In this document: positions 1 through 33,807 of the stretch, in pieces | Layout: each line of letters begins with the position of its first letter | How positions within the stretch are numbered: position 1 is the first letter of the stretch | Assembly: GCA_963795085.1 (NCBI GenBank) | Contig: CAWCFX010000001.1 | Coordinates: forward strand, 1,088,001 to 1,152,000 | Direction of reading: 5' to 3' | Length of the DNA stretch: 64,000 nucleotides | From: an uncultured Gemmatimonadales bacterium | GTDB taxonomy: Bacteria; Gemmatimonadota; Gemmatimonadetes; Gemmatimonadales; GWC2-71-9 | The notes under the pieces: generated by a model | What the model was told of the DNA's origin: nothing | Seen by the model: only the letters and a program-made list of their open reading frames with translations | Database searches by the model: none | Program-made: the position numbers and the translations under genes

Positions 1-163
1 CAGAGCGTATCATGAGCGACCTGGAGGAAGTACCTATACGGGTGGGGGGTTCTGGCTCGAAAGCGATCTCCCGATAAACCTTCATGCGTTCGAACATATC
101 GTAAGAACATCAATCTGCGCCTGGTGGTTGAATCTGGCGTATCCCACCACCGGGGCATCCTGA

Positions 164-1285
164 CTAGCCCATTATCAAGTGCTCTAGTTTTGCAGTTGCT
201 TCCTCTTGAAGGGTTGGCAAGACGGCCGAATAGGTGTCCATCGTCAGAACAATGGATGCGTGCCCTAGGCGCTCGCTCACAACCTTGGCATTGGTGCCGG
301 CCGCTAACATTAGTGACGCGCAGGTATGGCGAAGGTCGTAGGTGCGCAAGTGAGACAGCTTCGCCCTGTTAAGAATCTTCTGAAAATGCCACTTGCGGAG
401 GGACGAAACATTGATCGGCCCGCCAGTCGGGCCAGCAAAGATGAGACCTTGATCCTCGTAGATACTCCCGAGACGAAGCCTAGCTTCTGCCTGCTGCCTC
501 TTGTGATCCCGAAGGGACTTTAGGACGACCTCAGGAAGTGGCACAGTTCTTCGGCTCCTACTTGTCTTGGGCTCCCTGATCTCTGAGCCACCCCGATAGC
601 CAAAAACCAGGGCTCTCTGAATCCTGAGATTGGTCCCCTCAAGATCGGTCCACTTAAGAGCAGCTGCTGCCTCACCCGGACGAAGGCCACCAAACAGGAG
701 GACGAGCCAGAGGGCAGACCATTCGTCCTCCTTGGCAGCTTCGACGAACCTAGCCGCCTCAGCTGGCGGCAGAATGGTGAGTTCTCTTCTGATCATTTTG
801 GGGAGGGTTACAAGTGACGCAGGGTTGCGAGCGAATGGCATTCCAGAGGACTGCTTGCTTAAGCGCGCTTCGCAGGACGGCATGCACATACCTGACAACC
901 CTAGGAGATAGGCCACGGAGGGATAGCCCGTTGTAGAAGCGTTGAAGGTCGGCAGGGCTCAGAGACGAGAGCTTCACATCCCCTAGGGCGGGCTGAATGT
1001 ACCGACGGGTCAGATCAGCATAGTCACGGTGGGTTCGATTGCTTACGCGGGGCTTGGCGATGTTTTCGAGCCAATCAACCAAGAACTCCCCAACGGTTTG
1101 GCGGGAAGGCTCAGCGAAGGTTCCCGAGGAAACATCTGAAATAGTCTTGGCCGACCGGCTCCCGCCTGCCGCTTCGACCCCTTGATGGTCTTGTTTAGGT
1201 AGCGTCTTCGTCCATCCGCCCGCCTCACTAGGTAAACCCGGCACAACCAGATCCCAGGTCCTCGGTTAATCAGTTGGCCAGCCAT
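164..1285 (-). CDS. Tyrosine recombinase/integrase, phage/ICE type; split over three frames by indels
   Basis: ORFs 1043-1285 (arm-binding-like N-terminus), 759-1244 (core-binding domain) and 164-916 (GLRPGE, PKT, YDLRHT, LGHA, TMDTYS catalytic motifs) are contiguous pieces of one integrase. Confidence 0.9.
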
Positions 1286-2068
1286 TTGGGGGTCCTCGGA
1301 AGGGGGTTACCTCAAGATAGGAAAACCCAACTCCGCACACAATAGGCACACATGTAACAATATGCCATTTAGACACAACGACTTACAATGCACCAACGGA
1401 TTTATAGTCAGTAGGGCGTGCAAATTCCTAAAGTCTTGCGTCCGGAGATTTCTGGCGCATACTCTCTTCGAGTCCCCTCCCTAATGAAGAACACATGAAG
1501 AAACGGCGTGTATACGAATGCCCAGCAGTTGTGATGGATACCGACGTGTAATCGAGATCAGGTAGGATTTGCACCTGGATCGATCCGAGAAGATCAGGAA
1601 GGAGTTGGGGCGTGGCCCCAGTTTGGCCAAGTCGAGGGCGGCGCAGCTGCTAGTTGTGTAGTGCTTAGGCCCGTGCCATCTGTCGTCCGCAGTATCCCAC
1701 CGCAGTCCTCCATCGCCATTTTCAGGGCGTCGTACCCAAGCGCAGAAATTAGCGAAATCAATTGGCTAACTCCGGAGTGTGATCGCTACCTGTCAGGATG
1801 ATACTTCACTGTCCTCGACCACGAAATCACCCCAGGACACGAACCGTCAGGGTACCCCCCAGTTCGATGAAGAACCCAAGATCCCCTGGTCTACCACATG
1901 GTACCACATTTCCGGGTCTACCGAGGGGTGGACTCTTCGGGACATCATCCCGTCTCTTAGACGGGCTCGCTGCGACGTCCACCGGGATCGATCCTGCAGC
2001 GATTTGGTCAGACGGATGACTGAGCCCCCAGTTGAGGCTCACTGGTACACACCCAGAGCTCTATCATG

Positions 2069-3373
2069 TCAACCCTCCCCGCCACAATGTGACTTCTCCT
2101 GGCCATGTGCATCGCAGCCTAAATTGATGCGAAGGCCGCATTGGAGGCAGTCTAATACCTGCTTTGAGGCCCGAGGGCTAGGCCCCGGCTCGGCTCCTGC
2201 ACGGATACAGTTGACATACTTGACAATCATGGGAGCGCCCAGAGAATCACGCCTTACACCCGTCAGTACTCCGTCAAAAATGAACTTCGCTTGTAGGTCT
2301 GCAGGAAGGAGACGTCTTCGAAGTAGCGTACCATTGGCACTGTATACGTGCCACTCGAAGTGCGTCATATTATCGGCCCCGTACACTTCAATCCAGATAT
2401 CGCCGTTGTTGGCCACAAGAACTTGCCGAACTGAAGGTTTCACTGATGGGATCCTTATCAGTGGTCTCAACTCTGGATGAATATCGACCAAGTCATGATC
2501 TATGCTGTCAACCTCTTCTTGTGTCAATGCGAAGCGAGAGTTTGATCCCACATACTGTCTGAGCATCCTGCTAGTGGAATCATAAACACTAATTGTGTAA
2601 TCTCTTCCATTCGCGATGTAAATCTCCGCACTTGGCCCAATAGCCCAGTACTGCCTTGGTGCGAAGGGTGCGGGGGCGGAAGCACTAACTCCTGGACGTC
2701 GCACAGATACGAATGCTTGAGAATCAGTCCAGGTGAATGACGTCGTTTGTTACACCCGACTGCCAAGAAGCGTACTGAATCACGGACATGCCGTCATCAT
2801 CCGCCGGTGGACTTCGATATACCGGCCTTGCGTAAAGAAATGTCCCGTAAGGGGTAATAAAGACTGGATCACGGTCTTTCCAATGTGACATAACTGTGTC
2901 GCCCAGAAGACGGCCGTGGAGATCGAAAAAACTTAGTCTATTAGGGATTCGATCCCACACAGCTACTGTATGCATCCCGGATTATGACCCGGGAAGGCCA
3001 GGCGAACTCACCAGGCCCATGTCCGGGTCTCCCGATCTGGGTGGCTAAAGGACCCATCCGCATTGTAAGCAAGCAATCGACGCTCGCCTGCATCAACCGC
3101 GTATAGTTCGCCACTCGCCCCACGGGCAAGGTCCCAGACCTGGTTCAAGAAAGCACTGCTGTCACTCATATCGTTTCCAACTGTGGCTATCTCCTTTGAC
3201 GACATAAGGTCAACACCCATAGCGGTCGAGTGGGTCAGCCTATGGATGGGAATACCCCCCACGGTATCAATCGTAGCTGCCGGTTCAGTGCGCGGGGAAG
3301 GACTTGAGCACGCCCATGCCAAAAGATACTGCGGAAGCATGTAGTACAAAAAAGCGGAGATTACTCTCTGCAT
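2069..3373 (-). CDS. 6-bladed beta-propeller lipoprotein (frameshifted)
   Basis: Joined ORFs 3008-3535, 2941-3129, 2724-2975 and 2069-2704. Lipobox-like LAWAC; IGRPGHGPGEF, VWDxxxNRLSFFDxxG and GVRRDSLG motifs typical of TolB-like/6-bladed propellers. Confidence 0.75.
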
Positions 3374-3818
3374 TTTACAGTCACGTGTCCACTGCTTATG
3401 TCGGCGGTACATGCTGTTTTCCAGTTGGCTTGATTCCCTGGCACGCTTAGAGTATTCAACACCTTCCAGTCTGACTGCCGAAAAACTATTCGCTCGATGT
3501 TTGTGGTAATTATCTGAGACGACAATCCATTCCACTTCCCATCAAAAAACAACTGCAACCCTACATCGGTACCGCAAGCAGCACTTGCGTCGGGGCCCTT
3601 GGCCTCGACAGTCACTGAAGCTTCGGTAGTGTCACCTTGAGAGAAGGTGAATGCAAGAGACCCAGGTGTTCTCTCTTCGAAGACCACGTCAAGAACGCCG
3701 CGGTGAGTGGGAGTTCGATCGGTGGCGCAACGCAGTCCTTGCGCGGACAGGCTTGTCACCGGATTACTGACCGCCAGCATTCCGAGATGATCCCGAGTAC
3801 GAGAGGATGATTGTTCAC
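3361..3818 (-). CDS. Secreted hypothetical protein with 4 Cys
   Basis: ORF 3361-3780, plus GGGGAG RBS and GTG at 3818 one indel upstream; signal peptide ending in SLSA-Q. Confidence 0.6.
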
Positions 3819-3833
3819 GATTGTCTCCCCTAG

Positions 3834-3886
3834 TGACGGGGCCGAAGTGGATAGTTCATCGGCCAGCCTACCCACTTCGCCCGTCA
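3834..3886 (-). other. Intergenic stem-loop directly after the peptide genes
   Basis: TGACGGGGCCGAAGTGGATAG ... CTACCCACTTCGCCCGTCA imperfect inverted repeat, no poly-U tail. Confidence 0.7.
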
Positions 3887-3890
3887 TTGA

Positions 3891-4132
3891 TTAGTTAGGA
3901 ATCGACCTGCATTCCGATATGGCGCCGTTTGCACAACTGGCTGTGCACTGGCCCATACTCGCTTGACAAGTACACCAAGTATTTGAAACAGTGCAGGTGC
4001 AAATACCGCTCGAGCAGCTCGCCTTATCCATTTGAGCAGTTCCTTGACGAACTCCAAGCACCTAGGGCAAGTCCCCAAGTGGCAACGGTCGCCAGTAGTA
4101 CTAGCCGTTTTAGTCGCGGATAAAGTGGCCAT
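3891..4132 (-). CDS. Secreted 8-Cys peptide 2 (not in ORF track; leader interrupted by two indels)
   Basis: 3891-4031 reads MDKASCSSGICTCTVSNTWCTCQASMGQCTASCANGAISECRSIPN*, with the same Cys spacing as peptide 1; signal-like PRLKRLVLLATVATWGLALGA in an adjacent frame. Confidence 0.8.
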
Positions 4133-4168
4133 TGACGGAGTAATGGTTGGACGAAATGGAATGGCCGA

Positions 4169-4406
4169 TTACGGAGGTGTCTGCGTGCCACATTCCGAGG
4201 TTGTTCCGGATACACAGTGTGCCTTGCACGCGCCTCCACCAGAATGACAAGTACAACTTGTTCCGGCGGCCGCGCATGCACATCCGCCGCTGCTACAGGC
4301 CGCACTGTCCTGCGCTACTACAGCGGCCTTTGCGATGGGGATGGCAAAGGTCAGCCATATGGCAATGGCTGCCAATGCGAACGAGATACCTGGTCAGTTT
4401 GATCAT
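4169..4406 (-). CDS. Secreted 8-Cys peptide 1
   Basis: ORF 4169-4375 has a hydrophobic stretch and AKA cleavage site, then DSAACSSGGCACAAAGTSCTCHSGGGACKAHCVSGTTSEC; GGAGGAG RBS and ATG at 4406 (MIKLTRY) are one base out of frame. Confidence 0.8.
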
Positions 4407-4472
4407 CCGCCCTCTCCTCCGTTTGGATTGTAAGGGTACCACGACGGCCGCAGAGTGGGCCGCAAGTAATCA

Positions 4473-5219
4473 TTAGGAGCGATCGACTTGACCAAGCTCA
4501 TGGTGAAGTGCTGCCTTGAGGAGTGTCCAATTAGAGCCTTGGAGGCGCTTGCCATTAATGAAGAACGTGGGGGTGGCCGTTACGACCAGGCTTTGCCCCG
4601 ATACTTCTCGCCTTGTCGACCCTTTCCCTCGTTTCTCTCGAGCTCATGCAGGCATTCAGGTGTTCTCGGGCCAGGCCCAACCTCTCAGAGACGCGGGCGA
4701 TGTAAGAATCTGCATCCTGTGCAACTGCTACTTGATTGGCGAATAACGAGTCATGAAAGACCCAGAAGTTACCGTTGTCAGCGTGACATTCCGAAGCAAA
4801 CGCAGCTATGTACGCATTGGGGTGAAGCGAGGCAATAGGAAAATGAACAAAACGCAGGCGGACCCGGCCTTTGTGTGCTTCAACAAAACCCTTTATGGAA
4901 TCCGCAATAACCGCGCAGGCCGGACACTCGAAATCGGCAAACTCTACAATGTCAACATCAGGAGTGTTGAATCCCAAACTTGGGGAATCCAGACGATGCC
5001 CCTTCCACCCAAGTCCCCTCGAGGGTGAATTTGGCCCAAGTCTCGATTGCGGTCAGCCGCTCGGATATTCCGGCACCAAATTGGCTCATTCGCTCATCAA
5101 GGGCCTTGTCCGTGGTCTTAACTCGTCGATCAAGTGAAAGATGAGAACCGGTGCCCCACTAATAGCGTGCTTAAGACGATTAGGAGGGACCTGATGCTCT
5201 TGTCTGAATCAGAGGTCAT
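4473..5219 (-). CDS. DsbA-family thiol:disulfide oxidoreductase with N-terminal membrane anchor (frameshifted)
   Basis: EFADFECPAC active site, HFPI motif, C-terminal VTATPTFFINGKR (cis-Pro loop) in a neighbouring frame; hydrophobic N-terminus from ATG 5219. Confidence 0.85.
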
Positions 5220-6362
5220 TGCAGATACCCTTGTTATGATGGGAAGCGACCGTAGCTGAAGGTATAGAGGACAACAACAGGTTGAACTGAGTTTCCTAGG
5301 GTAACTCCTATGACCTGAGACTCTGCGAGCCGCGGTGAGCCTTACTGGTAGGGTTACGTTACCACAATACGCACCTGAGTTTCTTCGGAATACATCGTAG
5401 TCAAAGGCACTTGTATGGGCCTCAGGTCGTGGAACGCGCACAACAACAAGACTATCAGTCACCAAGAACTCGAGAACAGAAGACTTTGTCTTTGGAATTA
5501 GCGACTGAATGTCACCTGGCGTTAGCCTGTCGTACCAGCGGCGTTCAGAGCTACAAGAACGTCCTCCTCAGTTACGGGGATTGGGCGACGACGACGGCCT
5601 ATGACCTGATTTGGCAGTGCGGGATGACTAGCCTGGATGGCGTATTCCCTGCTGAGACTAGTGAACAACTCCCCCGTTGGTGCCATCGCCCATTGAGTGC
5701 GGTTGGCCATTTCAAAACCTAGGCTTAACGAACTGACTGTGCGGTCCAGCTTGGTTACTACGCTGCTCTTGACATCAAACGGGCCGAGTGAATCAACAAC
5801 CACACCTTCAAGGGAATACACTTGGGTGAACTCTGCATATGTGCCGTCGCTCCTGGACATATGAAGTCCGACCGCGACTTCGTTTCGATCGTTCGTTGCA
5901 ACAGGTAGACATAAAAAATGCCGGCCGGCTCAAGAATTAAAAGCCTCCGATCGATCCATCGGGACTCAAGGTGATGATTTGCCTCTTGGCTGCGTCCCAT
6001 ACAAAAAGGTGTCCATCAGGCGTGGAGCTAAATCCAACTAAGCTAGACGAGAATTGAAGCCCAGGAGCGTCCGGAGCAAATGTCTCAAGGCGATCGCCCC
6101 TCCACGATAACCTTTGAGCTTCACGAGATTGCACGTCGAGGATGTACAGTGAACTGTCAGGGCCAAAATCAACGTCCACCACTAAGCGGCTTACTGTGTC
6201 TGGTGGAATTGGCAGCAGTGAAAGCGAGCTTGTTTGCTGAAGAGTGACACTTTCAACACATTGGTCTAGCTCGATACTTGAGAGGTCGGTATTTAGTGAG
6301 GCCCCCTTCTCGCAGCCCTGTACAAAGCACACCACCAAAAGCAGACGTGTATAACTGGCCAT
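5216..6362 (-). CDS. 6-bladed beta-propeller lipoprotein (frameshifted)
   Basis: ORFs 5937-6464, 5522-5860 and 5130-5465; lipobox VQGC; DVDFGPDSSLYILD and DGHLFVWD blade motifs; end coordinate approximate. Confidence 0.65.
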
Positions 6363-6957
6363 GGAGAGGTTACGTGAAATAGCTCGTTCACTGGTCCAGC
6401 ACGACATGATATGGCCCTTGGTTCGTAGACGAGGCTGCTCTTGGGGACTCATAGTCTTAAGCATCCCCTTATAGAAGGATTTGTCAATAGGTCGTGGGCA
6501 GCATTACATGCGCCCTAACCGTAACGCGGCAGGGTCAACCAAGTATCAAACCATTGTGGCGCATTGCCTTAGTGAAGGGTATGCTTTCTGTTGGTGAGTG
6601 AGCCCCAATACCGTTTTGGGCCGTAAACGTAAGGCTGCCTTGTGAGTTAGCTGGCAGCCACAGATCAATGCACAACAAGATTCAAGTTGAGTATTGCTAA
6701 CACTGAAGTATGGCGCGATTTCTCAAGTCTCGGGCCTAGCCTGTTCTCCCTAAGCGGAAGGCTGATGCTTCCAGTCGCAATCGCTGGCGAGCAATCAGCG
6801 CATCGACTATTGGCAGCATTGACCGTGCATTTCAGGATCGACGCACCCCCACCCTAAGGCATGGTTGGAGCTTGGATTCAGAAGGTTTCCTTGATCTTGC
6901 CCCGGAAAAGTGGACACCGAGTTAGGTCGGATGCAAGTTACCGACGGGAGGTGGTCC

Positions 6958-7250
6958 ATGAAAGCGACGCGACGGCGGTTCAGCCGGGAGTTCAAGCTGG
7001 AGGCGGTCCGGCAGCTGGCGGCGGGGAGCCGGTTGGCCGATGTGGCCCGGGCGCTGGCGGTGGATGCCCAGGTGCTGCGGCGGTGGCAGGCGCAGGTGGC
7101 GATCGACCCGGTGACGGCCTTTCCGGGCAATGGCCGCGCGCCGGCCGACGAGGCCGAGTTGCAGCGGTTGCGGCGGGAGGTGGTCCAGCTGCGGGCCGAG
7201 CGTGATTTCCTAAAAAAGCGGCGGCGTTCTTCGCGAAGGACGCCAAGTGA
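6958..7250 (+). CDS. IS3 transposase OrfA (HTH)
   Basis: RRRFSREFKLEAVRQL...LRRW...LRAERDFLKK; A6G slippery run at 7212-7218. Confidence 0.88.
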
Positions 7251-8108
7251 GATTCCAGGCCCTGCGCACGATCGCGAGCGTGCTCCCGCTGCGGCGGCGG
7301 TGTGCCTTGCTCGAGGTGTCGCGGAGCGGGTACTACGCCTGGTGCCGTCGTCCGGCCAGTCGGCGGGCGCTGGCGAATCGGCTGCTGGTGGGCGTGATCA
7401 CCCGGGTGCACCGCGAGGTCGACCGGACCTATGGCAGTCCGCGGATGCAGCAGGAGCTGGTGGGCCAGGGCTGGCGCTGTGGCCGGCACCGGGTCGCCCG
7501 CCTGATGCAGGCGCACGGGATCCGGGCCAAGCAGGCGCGGCGCTTTCAGGTGACGACGGACAGCCGGCATGGGTACGCGACGGCGCCGAATCGGCTGGCG
7601 CGGCAGTTTACCGTGGCGGCACCGAACCAGGTCTGGATGAGCGATGTCACCTACCTCCCGACGGCGAGCGGGTGGTGCTACCTGGCCGTGGTGCTGGACG
7701 CCTGGTCGCGCCGGGTGATTGGGTGGGCGGTCGATACGCAGATCACCGCGGCGCTGACGCTGGCCGCGCTGGAGCAGGCGACGACGTCGCGCCGGCCGCC
7801 GGTCGGGGTCCTGCACCACTCCGATCGCGGCGTGCAGTACGCTTGTACCGCTTATCGGACCGCCCTGCAGCGCCTGGGCATGGTGGCGAGCATGAGCCGG
7901 CGGGGCAATTGCTGGGATAACGCGGTGGTCGAGAAGTTTCTTTGCCTCGCTCAAGACCGAGCGCACCGGCGACAAACGGTATGGATCGTGGCAGGAGGCC
8001 GAGGCCGATGTGCGGGATTACATCGAGCGCTTTTACAACCGGCAACGGCGGCACTCGACCCTCGGGCACCTCAGCCCGGCGATCTACGAGCTCTGCCAAG
8101 TGGCCTAA
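7247..8108 (+). CDS. IS3 transposase OrfB (DDE integrase core); one indel near 7935
   Basis: SRSGYY, YGSPR, WMSDVTY, LHHSDRGVQY and CWDNAVVE motifs; the C-terminal YIERFYNRQRRHSTLG continues in another frame. Confidence 0.92.
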
Positions 8109-8188
8109 TGCTGTCCACTAGAACGGGGCAAGGTCACCTGGCAATATCCGGCGCCGCTACTTGTTGAACGGGACCGTGCGAATCCAGC

Positions 8189-8425
8189 TTGTTCCGGATA
8201 GTACATCATTGTCTTACACAATTAACTCCTTCCCTTGCCCTTATACCGGTTGCGTGGGCTGCACTGCCGGTTTGTGGGATTATCGTGTGGCAGGGCTCCA
8301 CAGTCGCCTCTAGTCTCCTCTTTACGGTATTGGGACTTGGCGTTCTCTTTGTTGCATCTTGGATGGTTGCCCAGTACCAATTGGTTCGGCTTCTCCGTGT
8401 AGCCGTGCGCGGTGTTGCCAGCTAA
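8189..8425 (+). CDS. Membrane protein fragment (cassette gene, probably IS3-interrupted)
   Basis: Two hydrophobic helices; stop codon lies inside the attC R'' box (AGCTAAC). Confidence 0.45.
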   Translation: MFRIVHHCLTQLTPSLALIPVAWAALPVCGIIVWQGSTVASSLLFTVLGLGVLFVASWMVAQYQLVRLLRVAVRGVAS

Positions 8426-8517
8426 CACGGGCTTGGAGTGACCATTCGCGCCGGGCCCATCTGATGGATGCCGGGACATGATGAGCGCGAATGCCACTAA
8501 AGCGCTAACCATTTGGC
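8420..8517 (+). other. Degenerate integron attC site a
   Basis: AGCTAAC...GCTTGGAGTG..ATTCGCGC...GCGCGAAT..CACTAAAGC...ATTTGGC; aligns along its length with the sites at 9735 and 10067. Confidence 0.65.
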
Positions 8518-8541
8518 TGCTCACAATATCTGAGGGTTTTT

Positions 8542-9464
8542 ATGCCGACAGTACGGGACGAGCTGATCCGAATCCATGAGGACACTGGTGCGTTGGTGTC
8601 ACTCGTTGAGGGCAGTACGGACATCTCCAACGCGAAGTTGCACAGGATCTATCTCAGTTTAGCGCAGAGGTTCAACGGGCGCTTGAGACCCATTCGTATT
8701 CGACGGCACAATACGTAGACCAACTCGACGACAGGTTGCGAGACCTCCGAGATCACTGATGGCGTCGGCCATTGATGCAAATGGTTCGCTTATATACAAG
8801 GGCCAACAGGAGCAAGCGGCTCAAATCAGCGGCAGCGTGGTCGCCGCTGGAGTTGTGGGCGGGCTGTTCTCGCTACTGGGTACCGCGATCGCAGCTAAGC
8901 TAGTCAGTAACGCTATTGAAGACGCAACGGACCATCGACCGCCTACAGCGGAAGAACTGAAGGAAAGGGCGCTACTCCTGCTCATCGCGACAATTCAGAA
9001 GGAACGATCCTACATTCCACTAAACGACATCCTCGACCGTGCCTGTGGACCAAAGGCGATCCTGACGGCAGAGGATGTCCGTCGAATCCTGATGCTACTC
9101 GCATCTGAGGGTGCGGTAGAACGCAAAACGGACGAGGAAGACGCTCCACTCCGTGTTAACCCCCACCATCCCAAAGGAATACCTGTCCTTAGCCACACCT
9201 TCGCAACACAGGCTCCAGACTCTACGAATCCTCTGCCCTTCGTGGACCTGGGACCACTTCTTTGGAGTGAGTCTCAGTAGAGACAAGGCCAAGGAGGTCA
9301 ACTTCGTCAAGGTCTATAAGAGCGCGGACAAGTACAAAGTGTTCGTCGGCCATCATGTCTATCCAGACCACGCATTCGCCACGTCGGAAGCTTTCACGAC
9401 TAAGGAGGAGGCAGAGGTGGCCCGAATCGACACGCACACTCGGCTGCGCAAAGGTCTCTCATGA
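8542..9464 (+). CDS. Hypothetical cassette protein(s) with a central hydrophobic Gly/Ala segment (frameshifted)
   Basis: ATG 25 nt after attC a; ORFs 8759-9280 and 9153-9464 continue on the same strand up to the next attC remnant. Confidence 0.45.
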
Positions 9465-9487
9465 TTATCTAGAGCAGCCCACCAGGC

Positions 9488-9517
9488 GCTGCGCAGTCTG
9501 AACGCTATCCGTTAAGC
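9488..9517 (+). other. attC right-half remnant b
   Basis: GCGCAGTCTGAACGCTATCCGTTAAGC ends in GTTRRRY, one mismatch from the complement of the next R'' box (GCCTAAC); no left half recognisable. Confidence 0.45.
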
Positions 9518-9734
9518 TGTGCCGACGAGCTCCTAAACTGAGAGTCAATAGCCGGTAGGATTTGCCATAAATGTCGAGGCGCTGGCGCCTGGCAGAGGAT
9601 CTAGCCGCGCGCGGTGAGCTTTGAGCAGCTGGGTGACTAGGGAAAGCTTCTGAGCTGGCCTCAATAGCTTGGAACGAGATCCCAACTACCGCGTAGCGCG
9701 ACCCATCCTTGACCGTGTCGGACCTAGTGCTGAC

Positions 9735-9830
9735 GCCTAACAGCGCTTGGAGCGGTCGAACCGCGCCCAGTTACACTGGACGCTACCATATGCTGCGCGC
9801 GGATTGCCGCTCAAGCGCCCACAGCTAGAC
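9735..9830 (+). other. Integron attC site c
   Basis: GCCTAAC-AGCGCTTGGAGCGG..AACCGCGC...GCGCGGATT.CCGCTCAAGCGC..GCTAGAC; imperfect palindrome with an unpaired G in the L box. Confidence 0.8.
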
Positions 9831-9853
9831 AGCCTACTTCAGGAGGTGAGCCA

Positions 9854-10038
9854 TTGTTTGCTAAGGCCAATTTGAAACGGGCACTCAGTGCAATTGAGGA
9901 CGCCACAAGTGCTTTAAATCGAGCTCGTCACACACAGAGGATACCTCGGCAGCCTCTCAGATTCGGCGGGCGCTAAGTGAGCTCGATGATGCCGAAACGA
10001 AGGTCAGGCGTGCGATCAAGGAATTACCAGATGAGTAA
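9854..10038 (+). CDS. Small (~61 aa) alpha-helical cassette protein (one indel; not in ORF track)
   Basis: AGGAGG RBS plus TTG; MFAKANLKRALSAIEDATSALNRAR...QIRRALSELDDAETKVRRAIKELPDE*. Confidence 0.65.
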
Positions 10039-10066
10039 AACAGTGCGGCCCCAGCCCGAGACGACT

Positions 10067-10162
10067 GTCTAACAGCGCTTGGAGCGGTCAACCGCGCCGG
10101 GTCACGGGCTGGACGCCACGATATTGTGAGCGCGGTTTGCCTATCACGCGCCTACCTTAGGC
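10067..10162 (+). other. Integron attC site d
   Basis: GTCTAAC-AGCGCTTGGAGCGGTCAACCGCGC...GCGCGGTTTGCC...GCGC..CTTAGGC; near-identical 5' part to site c. Confidence 0.8.
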
Positions 10163-10189
10163 GTCATTGACAGAGGAATCGAGGCCCCT

Positions 10190-10927
10190 GTGACTCTGCG
10201 GCTTATTTCACTTAAGAGTGGAATTCTCCTCGTAACGAGCATTGGCGTGCTCGTCGCCTTCTGGGTCATCTACGGTTACGGACTTATCACAATTCCTTCT
10301 TGGATTTTAGCCGTCGCCCTCTTACTCATCGGATTGTCTCTCGTCTACTTCGCGTTGCGACCCACTTCTGCCCTTAGCTCACCTGTCAGTGTTGCCGCGT
10401 CTCCTGAATCCTCTACAGTCAAGCCGACACCCCCCTACACGCTTACTTACCAGGAATTAATCGATTTGTTCAAGCACTGGGATACAAGAGTATCACATCA
10501 CGGAGAATATCTTTGTACCTACTACGGCAGCGCCTTTAGTTGGCGTACTGGCCGCTTGGGAACATATCCCGACACTTGCTGCCACCGTTGCTGCGTTGGC
10601 TTCGGTAGCCATTTACGTATCGTACTTGCTAACCTTGCGAAGGAGCTCTGTGTTTTTCAAGACAATATTTTCTCTAGCCTTAAGCAACTCCTCACAAACT
10701 TCCCGAGTATAGTTGATGAACCCAAAGGCTGGATTGGGATTGCGCGGCGGCTCCGTGTACTTGGATTGCCGTTCCTGTCTACTATTTGGGCTCTAACTCT
10801 CCTGGCGAAGGTGATCGGTCAAAGCCCCAGGCTAAGTCTCTTGGAACTGCTTGCAGTAGGAGTACCCTTGCTTCCAGCGTTCATTTACACAAGACGCCTT
10901 TGGCTCGACACTCCTAGAGTAAATTAG
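10190..10927 (+). CDS. Multi-pass membrane hypothetical protein (cassette gene)
   Basis: Starts 28 nt after attC d with a GAGG RBS; at least four hydrophobic segments; middle part probably out of frame. Confidence 0.55.
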   Translation: MTLRLISLKSGILLVTSIGVLVAFWVIYGYGLITIPSWILAVALLLIGLSLVYFALRPTSALSSPVSVAASPESSTVKPTPPYTLTYQELIDLFKHWDTRVSHHGEYLCTYYGSAFSWRTGRLGTYPDTCCHRCCVGFGSHLRIVLANLAKELCVFQDNIFSSLKQLLTNFPSIVDEPKGWIGIARRLRVLGLPFLSTIWALTLLAKVIGQSPRLSLLELLAVGVPLLPAFIYTRRLWLDTPRVN

Positions 10928-10980
10928 GCCGACCTCTCATGCCGGCCGGCAATCAAAACCCGCACAGCCCGGAGAACTGT

Positions 10981-11433
10981 ATGACGGCTATCTCTCGTCT
11001 CACACACTATTTGACTATTCTCTTTCTGACGGCCCTTGTCGGGTGTAAGGAAGCGCTACCCCCCACTTACTCTGATGCTGGGATATTAGAGCTACAGCAG
11101 AGAGTTTTGCGGCTCTAGAGCAGAGCGTTGACAGCCTCAAGTCTGAACTTGCTGCCATCCGTACATCAGCTCAGCGTGCGCAGTCGACCGGGGGCACGGA
11201 GTTCCACAGGTGACTGTCAACGCTTTCTCGGCCGCTGGTCACCCCAAGGGGTTGAGATCTCACGCCAAGGCGGACAATACATATGGCGAGACAATGGAAA
11301 TCTGTTTGGCGTAAAGCAGTTCAAGTGCAGCGGCGGCGAACTCGTAGGCTCCGACCTGGCCGGAAACGTTACATTCAACACGGCTACGGGTCAGATCTAC
11401 TTCTTCGGCCGGGAGTTCCAACGCGTACGATAA
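10981..11433 (+). CDS. Hypothetical lipoprotein (frameshifted)
   Basis: GGAG RBS, MTAISRLTHYLTILFLTALVG-C lipobox, coiled-coil linker, then joins the C-terminal half of ORF 11128-11433. Confidence 0.55.
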
Positions 11434-11927
11434 TGCCGGTTTCCTTTACCGATCTCGACAAACCGAGATTATAATTGACCGGCGACGCTGAGGAGAAAGC
11501 GATGATCAATTTCCCTACATCTACCTCGCGGTGCAGAGCTACAACCGGGGGGCTAGGGGCAAGCGCTGGAGACATAGCAGCATAAGGTTATTTCGCATCG
11601 TTTCTGGCGGGAAGATCTTGGGAAGGAGTGCCCGAGGAACAGGTGCAAATGGACAGGAACAACCGGGAAGGTCAAGATAGCAAAAACCGCTTAAATGCCA
11701 CGAGGTGAAGCGCTTCGAAACTGAATGCAAAGATTAGAAGAGAACTGCAAAACATCCACCCATCGATGTGTGCTCTCGAGTGTGCCTCTGACGAAACTAG
11801 TTGAGAAACTACTGCTTCCAAAAGGACAGGCATCCGGGGAACCGGTAGAGAGCTATCTCGGCTCCATAAGGTCACTCTGAACAATTAGAGAACCATTTAA
11901 GACCAATAGCGTTCAGATTACCATTCG

Positions 11928-11972
11928 GGACTCATAATCCGTAGGTCGTGGGTTCAAGTCCCACAGGGCCCA
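11928..11972 (+). repeat. 3' half of tRNA-Ile2(CAT), att-site direct repeat; not a complete tRNA
   Basis: GGA-CTCATAA-TCCG TAGGTC GTGGG-TTCAAGT-CCCAC AGGGCCC-A gives anticodon loop, T arm and 3' acceptor strand; no D arm or 5' acceptor strand upstream. Confidence 0.85.
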
Positions 11973-12005
11973 TGGCACTTAAGGAATTGAAGGAATTACG
12001 TTCCC

Positions 12006-13486
12006 TCACTCTCGCCCGCGTCGCCCCATCCTGACCCGCACGATCTGCCCGCCTTCCGTCGCCCGGTGGCGGCCAGGCTCCACCGGCCCATGGCGATCCA
12101 CCTCCCCCGACGGCCACTCGACGACCACCGATCCACCCGCTCTCACCCAGCCCGAAGTGAATCACCGGATCGTTGCTCCCCGCGTAGCCGGTGCTGGCCT
12201 CGAGCCAGCGGTGCTGCCAGCGGCCTACCGAGCCGCGGCTGGTCCGGACCGAGACCCGGGCCCCGATGCCGCGGCGGTTGGAACGGGTCCCCCGTAGCTC
12301 GAGCACCAGCCAGCCTGCCGCCGGGGTGGGATCGGCCGCGGAATTCCGGTAGAGCCGGCTGGGTGAGCCCGGGCTGCCCCAGTTGGACACGAACAGATCG
12401 CAGTCCTGATCCCGCGTCCAGGTCTCCCCAGGCAATTCCGGCAGAGGTGTCGGCCGATTCCGACGGAATCCGGTTCCATCCCTCCCCGCGTCTCAGGTAC
12501 AGCTGGTTGTATTGGTCCGGCGCCGGTGTGCCACTGCCGAGGTAGAGATCGAGGTTCCCGTCCAGGTCGTAGTCTCCCCAGGCATGCCCCTTGGAGGCCG
12601 CGCTCGCCAACAGCGGACCCCACGAAGAAAGTTCCCAGCGGCCATCGCCCACGTTCCGGTAGAGGACGTTGTCGCGGTTGAAGTTGGCGATGAACAGATC
12701 GAGCCTGCGATCCTGGTCCGCGTCGGCCCACGACACACCGTAGGAATAGGCGCTGTCGCGCTGCAGCCCGGGCAGGTCACCCGAGGTGAAGCGAAAGCCT
12801 GCCCTGGTTCAGGAGCAGCAGGTCGGGCCGCTGGGCGACGGCCACCGCCAGGTCGGGCAGGCCGTCGCCATCGGGATCGCCGAACGCGCAGGCTCGGCCA
12901 TCGCCCTCCCCGCGCGCCCCGGCCGGCAACGCCACCTCGGCGAACCTGCCGGCATTATTGCGGAAGAGCTGGTTGCGCCCGGTACGATAGCCAACCAGGA
13001 AGACGTCCAGGTCGCCGTCCCGGTCCACATCGGCCCAGCAGGCCATGGAGGCGCTCATGGAGTCCGGCGCGATCGGAGTGCCGAAGACCCGGGTCAGGCG
13101 GCCGGCGTCGTTCTGAAAGAGCAGGCCCTGGCTGCCGCTCCGCCCCACCACGTGGAGGTCCAGGTCGCCGTCCCCGTCGAAGTCCACGAACACCGCACCT
13201 TCGGAGTCTCCCCCATCGATCGAGGCGGGACTCTCCGGGTGCCGGCGCAAGACGCCACCATCATTGATATAGAGGGTGTTGCGGAAGCCGCGACTGCGGG
13301 TGACGTACAACTCCGGGTAGCCATCGCCGTCCAGGTCGCCCCAGGCGACCCCGCGGGTGGGCCCGCTATCGGCGGCAGCGGTCCAGGCGACGGGGCTCAG
13401 CAGCGCCGGCTGCTGTGCGGCCAGCGGCGGCGGGCTGCGGCCAGGCCGATGCCGGCGGCGCCGAGCAGGGCGGCCCGGCGAAACAT
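12006..13486 (-). CDS. CRTAC1-family FG-GAP repeat protein with C-terminal ASPIC/UnbV domain (frameshifted)
   Basis: Repeated W(G/A)DxDGDGDLDL motifs in ORFs 12777-13310 and 12143-12736; LRGTRSNRRGIGARV...HFGLG in ORF 11932-12435. Confidence 0.85.
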
Positions 13487-32658: not shown

Positions 32659-33807
32659 GTGCATCTCTACCTCCATGTCCCCTTTTGCGCCCGGCGCTGC
32701 AGCTACTGCGATTTTGCGATTGCCGTGCGCCGTACGGTGCCGGCCCGTGCTTATGCCGACCTGGTTATCCGGGAATGGCAGGCCTGGCAGGCCTCCCCGG
32801 CGTGGGACGGAGACATCGAGACGATCTATTTCGGCGGGGGTACTCCCTCGCTGCTCGATCCCGCCGAGCTGGAGCGGATGCTCGAGGCCTTTCGCCACCA
32901 GCGGCCGGTGGCTGCCGCTGCTGAGATTACGCTGGAGGCCAATCCGGACGATGTGTCGCCTGAGCGGGCCCGGGCCTGGCGCTTGCTGGGATTCAACCGG
33001 GTGTCGCTGGGAGTCCAGTCCTTCGATCCGGGCGTGCTGCAATGGATGCACCGCACCCACACATCGGAGGATGTGCCCCGCGCCGTCGCCGCCCTCCGCG
33101 CCGCGGGGTTCGCCAACCTGTCGCTCGACCTGATTTTCGCCCTTCCCGCGCACCTGGGCCGGGACTGGTCACGTGACCTGTCCCTCGCGCTGGCATTGGG
33201 GCCGGAGCATCTCTCCCTTTACGGCCTCACCGTGGAAGAGCGTACCCCGCTGGCCCGCTGGGTGGCCCGGGGTGAGACCATCCGGTCTGATGACAGCGCC
33301 TACGCCGGTGAGTTCCTGGAGGCCGATGCCGCGATGCGGCAGGCCGGTTTTGAGCATTACGAGGTTTCCAACGCGGCCCGGCCGGGATTTCGGTCCCGCC
33401 ATAACAGCGCCTACTGGCACCGGCGACCCTTTATTGGCCTGGGCCCATCCGCCCACAGCGGCTGGGACAACCAGCGCCGCTGGAACATCCGGGAGTGGAG
33501 CGCCTACGAGCGGGCGGTCAGTGAGGGCCGGCCGGCGATGGAGGGCGAGGAGCACCTCGACGAGTCCGCGGTGGCCCTGGAGACCCTCTATCTGGGCCTG
33601 CGCACCACGGAAGGTGTCCCCCAATCCTCGGTGCCCAAGGACCAAGCCGACGCGTGGACTGCGGCCGGCTGGGCCCAGCGCTACGAGGGCCGACTCCGCC
33701 TGACGCCCGAAGGGTGGCTCCGGCTGGATGCCCTGGTGGCGTCGGTGGAGATGGCCCGAAGCTTCCCCACCGGCTTAGGTTTGGGTCATGACCGAACCTC
33801 TGACTGA
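32659..33807 (+). CDS. hemW: Radical SAM heme chaperone HemW
   Basis: LYLHVPFCARRCSYCDF, YFGGGTPS, EANP, YEVSN and HNSAYW motifs; upstream of hrcA. Confidence 0.93.
   Translation: MHLYLHVPFCARRCSYCDFAIAVRRTVPARAYADLVIREWQAWQASPAWDGDIETIYFGGGTPSLLDPAELERMLEAFRHQRPVAAAAEITLEANPDDVSPERARAWRLLGFNRVSLGVQSFDPGVLQWMHRTHTSEDVPRAVAALRAAGFANLSLDLIFALPAHLGRDWSRDLSLALALGPEHLSLYGLTVEERTPLARWVARGETIRSDDSAYAGEFLEADAAMRQAGFEHYEVSNAARPGFRSRHNSAYWHRRPFIGLGPSAHSGWDNQRRWNIREWSAYERAVSEGRPAMEGEEHLDESAVALETLYLGLRTTEGVPQSSVPKDQADAWTAAGWAQRYEGRLRLTPEGWLRLDALVASVEMARSFPTGLGLGHDRTSD

What the first reader, a model, noticed from the sequence alone, without database searches (positions are those of the whole stretch)
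3891..4406. Hidden second peptide defines a conserved 8-Cys scaffold
Seen: the ORF track shows only peptide 1 (CSSGGCACAAAGTSCTCHSGGGACKAHCVSGTTSEC). Reading the minus strand by hand gives a tandem paralog, CSSGICTCTVSNTWCTCQASMGQCTASCANGAISEC. Both follow C-x4-C-x-C-x6-C-x-C-x6-C-x3-C-x7-C with no gaps and share D-x-A-x-CSSG, CTC, G-x-C-x-A-x-C and G-x-x-SEC, while the two 6-residue loops and the leaders differ almost completely. Inference: a fixed disulfide frame with variable loops, as in toxin or ligand families. The exact spacing match makes a chance ORF very unlikely.
Basis: seen in the sequence. Interest (0 to 1): 0.82.

Follow-up and report, generated by a model that had tools for sequence, protein, structure and literature searches.

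The report
Tandem secreted eight-cysteine peptide genes
Two neighbouring small genes encode diverged copies of a rare, unnamed family of exported eight-cysteine peptides that sit with their own disulfide-forming enzyme and propeller-shaped lipoproteins on a mobile island, but in this assembly their leaders are broken by single-base frameshifts.

Summary
Both minus-strand reading frames exist (cores at 4190-4297 and 3909-4016) and align without gaps over eight cysteines. That cysteine spacing occurs nowhere else in the 3.9-Mb genome. The substitution pattern between the copies shows long purifying selection.

A full HMMER scan of 1.84 billion proteins found 8 true homologues. A word-index search added two, and one related genome (G380) adds another. 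All are 75-90 aa, carry a signal peptide and have the same spacing. None is named or has a Pfam, NCBIfam or PDB match.

In G380 the gene is intact inside an operon-like cassette: propeller lipoprotein, membrane-anchored DsbA-like protein, peptide, small secreted protein, propeller lipoprotein. The window carries the same cassette on a 17.8-kb low-GC island at tRNA-Met. Here every island gene with homologue or Pfam support, including both peptide leaders, is split by frameshifts. I could not tell consensus error from recent decay.

Most likely these are Sec-exported peptides with four disulfides, folded by the cassette's DsbA-like enzyme and acting together with the propeller lipoproteins. The end function is unknown.

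Earlier notes of this scan describe similar peptide/thioredoxin-like/propeller modules in other phyla. I found no paper describing them.

The parts
4169..4393 (-). Peptide 1: open frame holding the hydrophobic leader core, a predicted signal cleavage region (AKA/AVVAQD) and the 8-Cys core (Cys codons span 4190-4297). The listed ORF starts at TTG 4375; the stop is at 4169-4171.
   Evidence: 40% identity to the intact G380 peptide, E 4e-14
4380..4420 (-). Probable true start of peptide 1: Shine-Dalgarno GGAGGAG (4414-4420), ATG 4404-4406 and the first 9 codons (MIKLTRYLV). These lie one frame away from the rest of the gene. The frame change must fall within about 4378-4393.
   Evidence: The N-terminus matches the family consensus M-x-x-L-R-x-x-L...A-x-W.
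3891..4061 (-). Peptide 2: listed ORF (GTG 4061, internal ATG 4031) with the 8-Cys core (Cys codons span 3909-4016). It has no signal peptide in this frame.
   Evidence: 54% identity to the G380 peptide
4027..4132 (-). Peptide 2 leader remnants: ATG 4130-4132 in one frame, and a hydrophobic core (KRLVLLATVATWGLALGAWSS, 4027-4110) in a second frame. Both differ from the core's frame, so there are two frame changes.
4476..4977 (-). DsbA-like thiol:disulfide oxidoreductase (Thioredoxin_4/DSBA, active site C-P-A-C), split by one frameshift at about 4590. The N-terminal membrane-anchor region is not in frame.
   Evidence: (41% identity to the G380 protein, E 6e-34)
5280..6464 (-). Upstream beta-propeller lipoprotein gene (propA; lipobox VQGC), in at least 3 frame pieces.
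   Evidence: summed tblastn E 1e-31 against the G380 protein
3361..3887 (-). Small secreted 4-Cys protein of unknown family. It occupies the position of the 165-aa protein of G380. Its signal-like N-terminus is in another frame.
   Evidence: E 0.22, not significant; the first two Cys align
2069..3535 (-). Downstream beta-propeller lipoprotein gene (propB; lipobox LAWAC), in several frame pieces.
   Evidence: (35% identity, E 8e-30). The G380 orthologue hits PF17170 DUF5128 at 30.8 bits against a cut-off of 22.9.
164..1244 (-). Tyrosine integrase of the island, split into two overlapping frames.
6910..8167 (+). IS3-family insertion sequence (orfA HTH_Tnp_1, orfB rve), 71% GC, inserted into the island next to the cassette.
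11928..11973 (+). Right end of the island: a 46-bp perfect direct repeat of the 3' part of tRNA-Met. The tRNA lies 5.8 kb left of the window, at C1:1082100-1082173.

Best explanation
The two ORFs are old tandem paralogues of a rare, unannotated family of small exported peptides.

What the homologues show about the precursor:
- It is 75-90 aa long.
- It has an N-terminal Sec-type signal (M-x-x-L-R, a hydrophobic core with a conserved Trp, and often L-R-A just before a conserved Asp).
- It has a 36-residue core with 8 invariant Cys plus invariant or near-invariant S, G, T, G, A and G.

Inferred mechanism:
1. The precursor is exported and the signal is cut a few residues before the first Cys.
2. 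The membrane-anchored DsbA-like protein encoded just upstream puts in four disulfides. The host's single VKOR homologue re-oxidises it.
3. The compact, all-beta, disulfide-locked peptide of about 42-46 aa then works in the periplasm or outside, together with the DUF5128-type six-bladed propeller lipoproteins that flank it. It could be their ligand or small subunit, or a toxin that they handle.

The cassette travels on mobile DNA. In this assembly both peptide genes, and every other island gene with homologue or Pfam support, carry frameshifts (single-base where the junction could be mapped). As written, peptide 1 could at best start at a weak TTG, and peptide 2 has no export signal. Either the island's consensus sequence is poor or the cassette has recently died.
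For: Real and conserved:
- The gap-free alignment, the uniqueness of the Cys spacing in the genome, and the codon-position pattern.
- 8 homologues from a full HMMER scan, 2 more from the word-index search and 1 intact copy in genome G380. All have a signal peptide and identical spacing.

Cassette:
- In G380 (L020) the minus strand reads propeller lipoprotein 10793-12022, DsbA-like 10041-10919, peptide 9724-9990, 165-aa secreted protein 9137-9634, and propeller lipoprotein 7920-9146. All are open, and some overlap their neighbours.
- The window has the same order, with 41%, 35% and 40% identity for the DsbA-like protein, propB and the peptide.

Recurrence of the module with unrelated Cys-rich signal-bearing peptides:
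- A second set in G380 (L020 14917-17223).
- G452 (L166): peptide, then DsbA-like, then DUF5128 propeller with a 4-nt overlap.
- The window's own genome at C4 (L165): a peptide overlapping the first of four propeller genes by 4 nt.

Re-oxidant: VKOR is present at 98 bits. No DsbB was found, and MauE was below its cut-off.

Precedents: a dedicated thiol oxidoreductase next to a 4-Cys peptide toxin (PMC6671954, passages read). MauD is needed for the six disulfides of methylamine dehydrogenase, whose light chain is MauA (preprint 10.64898/2026.03.05.709764, passages read).
Against: - No disulfide, export, cleavage site or binding has been measured. No SignalP-type tool was available.
- The structure model is poor (mean pLDDT 57.6, 13-sequence alignment), so neither fold nor disulfide pairing is known.
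- Most DsbA-like genes (found in 290 of 301 family genomes) and most propeller paralogues are not next to such peptides. Only 2 of 28 propeller loci had one within 1.5 kb. The link therefore rests on four genomes, two of them for this peptide family.
- Context could not be read for any of the 10 metagenome homologues.
- In this genome the genes are broken as assembled, so they may do nothing here.
Confidence: 0.65

Rival explanations
1. Secreted antibacterial peptide toxin (bacteriocin-like). The disulfide-locked peptide kills competitors, and the small secreted protein or the propeller lipoproteins give immunity or act in processing. The two diverged copies widen the target range or act as a pair.
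For: - The cassette is an accessory, mobile, patchily distributed module. It was found in 2 of 401 family genomes and is missing from 4 same-genus genomes. It sits on a tRNA-Met island.
- The loops vary on a fixed frame.
- P0001 and P0002 both report '5 contigs, longest 17469', which suggests a second tandem pair.
- Bacteroidetocins are 42-aa, 4-Cys toxins with their own thiol oxidoreductase.
Against: - There is no double-glycine leader, C39 ABC exporter or known immunity family in the cassette.
- No bacteriocin Pfam or NCBIfam hit.
- Propeller lipoproteins are not known immunity proteins.
- No activity data.
Confidence: 0.25
2. Periplasmic metal-binding peptide (metallothionein-like thiolate cluster). 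The DsbA-like protein would act in copper or thiol handling rather than in making structural disulfides.
For: Two C-x-C motifs and 22% Cys in the core. Some DsbA-family proteins work in copper tolerance (recalled, not tested).
Against: - No metallothionein or metal-chaperone family hit.
- No His or Met enrichment, and no metal pump or regulator in the cassette.
- The exported location next to an oxidase favours disulfides.
Confidence: 0.07
3. Precursor of a modified peptide (lanthipeptide-like or radical-SAM cross-linked), since the core is rich in Ser/Thr and Cys.
For: 10 Ser/Thr and 8 Cys in 36 residues of peptide 1. An earlier scan note reports radical-SAM genes in sister clusters of a similar module in another phylum (e1-2371722, not checked).
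Against: - None of the cassette ORFs sent to Pfam and NCBIfam, in the window or in G380, matched a Lan enzyme, radical-SAM, cyclodehydratase or peptidase-exporter family.
- The leader is a normal Sec signal and not a recognition leader.
- The nearest radical-SAM gene (32659-33807) lies 28 kb away in native DNA next to hrcA.
Confidence: 0.04
4. On the status of the copies in this genome: the frameshifts are real, and the whole island is a recently decayed relic, so the two genes are pseudogenes.
For: - At least 7 frame changes within about 6.4 kb of the cassette and integrase, and split Type III restriction genes further left.
- 15 native ORFs with Pfam hits show no split domain.
- A native low-GC peptide/propeller module at C4 is intact.
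- An IS3 element has been inserted into the island.
Against: - No in-frame stop appears in the pieces that align to the intact G380 proteins or to Pfam, and no large deletion was seen.
- All 16 Cys codons and all other invariant codons are kept.
- 5 of 6 mapped shifts are most simply one extra base. This is the opposite of the usual deletion bias of bacterial decay (recalled) and looks more like a low-coverage long-read consensus.
- No reads could be obtained.
Confidence: 0.4

Closest known systems
Bacteroidetocins (class IIf bacteriocins of Bacteroidales; PMC6671954, passages read)
   Same: Ribosomal peptide with a mature length of about 42 aa, several Cys, and a dedicated thiol oxidoreductase gene beside the peptide gene. 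Several diverged peptide variants occur across strains.
   Different: - Bacteroidetocins have 4 Cys, a 15-aa double-glycine leader, a peptidase-ABC exporter and a 5-TM protein.
- Here there are 8 Cys, a Sec-type signal, no exporter and two propeller lipoproteins.
- No sequence similarity was found.
Methylamine dehydrogenase system MauA/MauB/MauD (preprint 10.64898/2026.03.05.709764, passages read; that MauB is a propeller is recalled)
   Same: A small exported Cys-rich protein encoded with a thioredoxin-fold CXXC protein needed for its disulfides, and with a beta-propeller partner protein. In genome G452 a CCP_MauG di-haem gene follows the module.
   Different: - No MauA or MauE family hit.
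- No conserved Trp for a quinone cofactor.
- The propellers are DUF5128-type six-bladed lipoproteins.
- The oxidase is DsbA-like (Thioredoxin_4).
Bacteroidales clusters of NVEALA small proteins (PF14055) with DUF5128 propellers and thioredoxin-like lipoproteins
   Same: A trio of small exported Cys-containing peptide, thioredoxin-fold protein and DUF5128 six-bladed propeller lipoprotein, often in swappable or mobile cassettes.
   Different: - The peptides here have no PF14055 hit.
- The phylum is different (Gemmatimonadota).
- The oxidase is a membrane-anchored DsbA-like protein and not a lipoprotein.

Membership tests
Unnamed 8-Cys secreted peptide family (P0001-4, P0006-11, G380 peptide) | Core C-x-S-G-x-C-x-C-x6-C-x-C-x6-C-x3-C-x2-G-x4-C with no gaps | tested here: met
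   Both window copies carry all 11 columns that are invariant in all 13 sequences, and also the four near-invariant ones (D, T, G, A).
Unnamed 8-Cys secreted peptide family (P0001-4, P0006-11, G380 peptide) | N-terminal Sec-type signal peptide in frame with the core | tested here: not met
   As assembled, the peptide-1 ATG is one frame off, and the peptide-2 leader is spread over two other frames. The leader pieces themselves are recognisably homologous.
Class II bacteriocins / bacteroidetocins | Double-glycine leader with a C39-peptidase ABC exporter in the cluster | tested here: not met
   No GG leader appears in any of the 13 sequences. No such Pfam or NCBIfam hit among the cassette ORFs sent.
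Class II bacteriocins / bacteroidetocins | Antibacterial activity | not testable with these tools
   Needs an overlay assay with the oxidised peptide.
Lanthipeptides and other RiPPs | A modifying enzyme (LanB/C/M/KC, radical SAM, YcaO) encoded next to the precursor | tested here: not met
   No such hit among the cassette ORFs sent, in the window or in G380.
MauA (methylamine dehydrogenase light chain) | Sequence match to the family and the two Trp that form the quinone cofactor | tested here: not met
   No Pfam hit. No conserved Trp in the core.
NVEALA small proteins (PF14055) | Match to PF14055 | tested here: not met
   0 Pfam families at E <= 0.1 for either window peptide or for the G380 peptide.
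Bacterial metallothionein and heat-stable enterotoxin families | Match to the Pfam models of these Cys-rich families | tested here: not met
   0 Pfam families at E <= 0.1. 0 PDB sequences at E <= 10 with the family profile.
DUF5128 six-bladed beta-propeller (PF17170), for the flanking lipoproteins | Match above Pfam's gathering score | tested here: met
   G380 propB scores 30.8 bits and prop3 28.4 bits against a cut-off of 22.9. The G452 propellers score 30.7 and 33.1 bits. The broken window pieces and G380 propA gave no Pfam hit of their own, but they match the G380 proteins.
DsbA-like oxidoreductase (PF13462/PF01323) | [quoted passage not shown] | tested here: met
   Window piece: Thioredoxin_4 44.5 bits (cut-off 23.2), DSBA 38.2 bits (cut-off 25.6), motif C-P-A-C. 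Catalytic activity was not tested.

The most novel reading that the evidence does not exclude
The 8-Cys peptides are one allele family of a widespread, undescribed periplasmic system. In it, fast-evolving and mutually non-homologous Cys-rich mini-proteins are the small subunits or ligands of DUF5128 six-bladed propeller lipoproteins. A thioredoxin-fold oxidase encoded alongside matures them, much as MauD matures MauA for MauB. The whole module moves between genomes as a cassette. It may serve as a polymorphic recognition or antagonism system.
Probability: 0.3. Interest if true: 0.75.

Novelty: new variant of a known kind. Interest (0 to 1): 0.5.

Why it matters
- Small Cys-rich secreted peptides of Gram-negative environmental bacteria are almost unstudied, and gene callers routinely miss them.
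- This family has about a dozen members among billions of predicted proteins, no name and no fold.
- It sits in a module (peptide, thioredoxin-fold oxidase, DUF5128 propeller lipoprotein) that this scan keeps meeting in several phyla and that no paper I could find describes.
- The intact G380 cassette offers a compact, testable set of five genes. With it one could learn what DUF5128 propellers do and whether these peptides are toxins, ligands or enzyme subunits.
- A 42-aa scaffold with four disulfides may also be of use in peptide engineering.

Tried and rejected
- Sequencing runs: none was listed for window 3700-5100, and no RNA holder was listed. Reads could therefore not settle the frameshifts.
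- Complex prediction (G380 propB with the mature peptide): the queue was full, and the tool was declared unavailable. Nothing was folded.
- Word-index search with peptide 1 alone: no hit.
- The search for related loci:
  - P0002 and P0006 in metagenome contigs found none.
  - The G380 peptide in genome contigs found none.
  - P0003 in viral contigs found none.
  - So no context was obtained for any metagenome homologue.
- Structure: the AlphaFold2 model of the peptide-1 core is too uncertain to search with (pLDDT 57.6). No fold search was run.
- PDB profile search: 0 hits at E <= 10.
- ESM Atlas: best score 0.79, no lead.
- Weak genome hits: the 14 matches (E 7e-4 to 9e-3, 18-22 bits) were not seen again at E <= 1e-5 within the family, and I treat them as chance. 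P0005 (453 aa, nine short repeat matches) was rejected as spurious.
- Homology of the fourth gene (window 3361-3780 against the G380 165-aa protein): not significant (E 0.22). Only two Cys and a few motifs align.
- A common sequence motif at the frameshift sites: CCWGG was seen at two sites only, and no pattern emerged.
- Promoter and terminator scan of 3300-6700: fewer sites than in shuffles.
- Literature: searches for DUF5128/NVEALA/BF3164, Gemmatimonadetes with cysteine-rich, secreted peptide and DsbA, and disulfide-rich peptide with DsbA, gene cluster and beta-propeller returned nothing relevant. I judged this from the listings only.

Full report
OBSERVATION

Their mature parts align over 47 columns at 46% identity, and the only gap lies after the last Cys. 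All 8 Cys and 13 further columns are identical.

A regex for the bare Cys spacing finds only these two places on both strands of all six contigs, 3,885,868 bp in total. A protein search of the genome itself links the two at E 1.5e-7 and finds no third copy.

Over 43 aligned codons, first, second and third positions are identical in 25, 29 and 18 cases. pS is 0.69, pN is 0.37 and dN/dS is about 0.27. The copies are therefore old paralogues that diverged under coding constraint in exactly this frame.

A REAL FAMILY

Peptide 1 alone found nothing in the word-indexed database. A profile of the two cores, run by HMMER over 1.84 billion representative proteins, gave 9 hits at E <= 1e-3.

- Eight hits are proteins of 75-90 aa with an N-terminal signal-like segment and the same spacing.
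- The ninth (P0005, 453 aa) matches only through nine short repeats, and I reject it.

A profile search of 5.77 billion clusters gave 9 proteins and added P0010 and P0011. None has a Pfam domain. Names are 'hypothetical protein' or absent. All ten clusters are singletons.

In the 13-sequence alignment, 11 columns are invariant: C, S, G, C, C, C, C, C, C, G, C. D, T, G and A are near-invariant.

P0011 has two extra Cys. One replaces the conserved Ala and the other a hydrophobic position after the second C-x-C start. This hints that these two positions touch (inference from one sequence).

No Pfam, NCBIfam or PDB sequence matches the family. The protein atlas gave no lead.

TAXON AND SPREAD

The window's Obg protein is 62-83% identical to those of its 13 best-matching records, all Gemmatimonadota MAGs, mostly Gemmatimonadaceae or Gemmatimonadales.

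- In 401 genomes sampled from the phylum, only the window's genome and G380 (same family, another genus) have a strong match. Fourteen others have 18-22-bit matches that I treat as chance.
- In 401 genomes of the family at E <= 1e-5, the count is again 2 of 401. Four genomes of the same genus (completeness 94, 79, 81 and 64%) have none.

CONTEXT

In G380 (L020) all genes are open on the minus strand, in this order:

| Gene | L020 coordinates | Notes |
|---|---|---|
| Propeller lipoprotein | 10793-12022 | |
| DsbA-like protein | 10041-10919 | Membrane anchor; Thioredoxin_4 at 63.6 bits |
| 8-Cys peptide | 9724-9990 | 88 aa, with signal |
| Secreted 4-Cys protein | 9137-9634 | 165 aa |
| Propeller lipoprotein | 7920-9146 | PF17170 DUF5128, 30.8 bits against a cut-off of 22.9 |

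The window has the same order. Identities to G380 are 41% for the DsbA-like protein (E 6e-34), 35% for propB (E 8e-30) and 40% for the peptide (E 4e-14). PropA matches at a summed tblastn E of 1e-31. The fourth gene is only a positional counterpart.

THE ISLAND

The cassette lies in the largest low-GC stretch of the genome: 51-56% GC against 67% for the genome. The island runs from tRNA-Met at C1:1082100-1082173 to a 46-bp perfect repeat of the tRNA's 3' end at window 11928-11973, about 17.8 kb in all. It also carries:

- fragments of a Type III restriction-modification system;
- an integrase;
- an inserted IS3 element of native composition.

In G380 the cassette also lies in DNA of lower GC than its surroundings, between two copies of a SuhB-like gene fragment and next to IS genes. 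The gene names here are read from the ORF translations and were not scanned.

FRAMESHIFTS

The intact homologues show that the peptide-1 precursor should start at ATG 4404-4406, behind GGAGGAG. That ATG is one frame away from the rest of the gene.

The peptide-2 ATG (4130-4132), its hydrophobic leader (4027-4110) and its core lie in three different frames.

Other island genes are also split:

- the DsbA-like gene, once, at about 4590;
- propA, twice;
- propB, at least once;
- the integrase, once;
- the ResIII domain of the restriction gene, across two ORFs.

No in-frame stop appears in the aligned pieces. By contrast, 15 of 26 long ORFs sent from the native part of the window had Pfam hits, and none of them shows a split domain. 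Many cover their profile nearly end to end, for example Aldedh 9-461 of 461 and ADI 4-377 of 377. The other 11 ORFs had no hit, and some are probably antisense frames. A native low-GC peptide/propeller module on contig C4 is also intact.

The frameshifts are therefore specific to the island. Five of the six shifts I could map are most simply one extra base. I lean slightly (about 0.6) towards a poor local consensus, for example an island present in few reads, over real decay. No reads were obtainable.

As assembled:

- Peptide 1 could start only at TTG 4375, without a charged N-region or a good ribosome-binding site.
- Peptide 2 has no signal peptide.

THE MODULE RECURS

DsbA-like genes are common in the family (290 of 301 genomes). 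So are propeller paralogues (59 of 121 genomes, up to 15 matches per genome). Most of them are not next to Cys-rich peptides. By a simple signal-plus-six-Cys filter, 2 of 28 propeller loci have one within 1.5 kb. The same filter finds 6 such ORFs in the whole 3.9-Mb genome.

The trio nevertheless recurs with unrelated peptides:

- G380 has a second set (peptide, DsbA-like, propeller at L020 14917-17223) and a further Cys-rich signal-bearing ORF at 12066-12266.
- G452 has peptide, then DsbA-like, then DUF5128 propeller with a 4-nt overlap, followed by a CCP_MauG di-haem gene and another propeller.
- In the window's own genome, a 109-aa Cys-rich signal-bearing ORF overlaps by 4 nt the first of four propeller genes on C4.

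Earlier notes of this scan report the same kind of trio in Bacteroidota, Cloacimonadota, KSB1 and other groups. These notes are unchecked. They agree with what I found here but are not independent proof.

MECHANISM

Shown:

- the family is conserved;
- intact members have a signal-like N-terminus;
- synteny with a DsbA-like gene and DUF5128 lipoproteins holds in two genera;
- the cassette is on mobile DNA.

Inferred:

- Sec export, and cleavage near the conserved L-R-A/D;
- four disulfides made by the cassette's DsbA-like protein, which the host's single VKOR homologue re-oxidises (98 bits; no DsbB found; MauE below its cut-off);
- action together with the propellers.

The end function is open. 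I rate ligand or subunit of the propellers and antibacterial toxin as the two live options.

COMPARISON WITH KNOWN SYSTEMS

- Bacteroidetocins share the peptide size and the dedicated thiol oxidoreductase. They use a GG leader and an ABC exporter.
- The mau system shares the trio logic: a small disulfide-rich exported protein, a thioredoxin-like maturase and a propeller partner (that MauB is a propeller is recalled). The family here lacks the Trp residues of MauA.

No paper on DUF5128 or NVEALA modules was found.

VERDICT

The peptide family is new and rare, and the surrounding module is undescribed in print but recurrent in this scan. The function is unknown, and the copies in this assembly are interrupted.

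Noticed in passing
window 1-11973, and left of the window to C1:1082174: A 17.8-kb integrative island at tRNA-Met with 51-56% GC against 67% for the genome. A 46-bp perfect direct repeat of the tRNA's 3' end at 11928-11973 closes it.
   Followed up: yes
window 164-6464 and L024 632-4935: Every island gene with homologue or Pfam support is split by frameshifts (single-base where mapped), without in-frame stops in the aligned pieces. Native genes in the same window are intact. This is either a local consensus error or recent decay.
   Followed up: partly
L024 632-4935 (C1:1082431-1086734): Fragments of a Type III restriction-modification system: an N6_N4_Mtase piece, and ResIII split over two ORFs.
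   Followed up: partly
window 6910-8167: An IS3-family element with both reading frames open (orfA HTH_Tnp_1, orfB rve) and 71% GC, which is native composition. It is inserted into the low-GC island between propA and the plus-strand genes.
   Followed up: partly
L165 2752-9000 (own genome, C4:33751-39999): An intact native module: a 109-aa signal-bearing, very Cys-rich ORF overlapping by 4 nt the first of four propeller genes. Of the three sent to Pfam, one hits DUF5128. There is no DsbA-like gene.
   Followed up: partly
L020 12066-12266 and 14917-17223 (G380): Two further unrelated Cys-rich signal-bearing small ORFs. One of them sits with its own DsbA-like and DUF5128 propeller genes. The first cassette lies between two copies of a SuhB-like gene fragment and next to IS genes.
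   Followed up: partly
L166 489-5418 (G452:C334): Cys-rich peptide, DsbA-like, DUF5128 propeller, CCP_MauG di-haem peroxidase (E 5.9e-42, apparently in two frames), then a second DUF5128 propeller. The layout echoes the mau cluster.
   Followed up: partly
P0001 and P0002 (metagenome proteins): Both report the same figures, '5 contigs, longest 17469'. They probably sit together as a tandem pair, like the two window copies.
   Followed up: no
window 8759-11433: Plus-strand island genes of unknown family: a 173-aa protein, a 245-aa membrane protein and a 101-aa protein. None has a Pfam or NCBIfam hit above its cut-off.
   Followed up: partly
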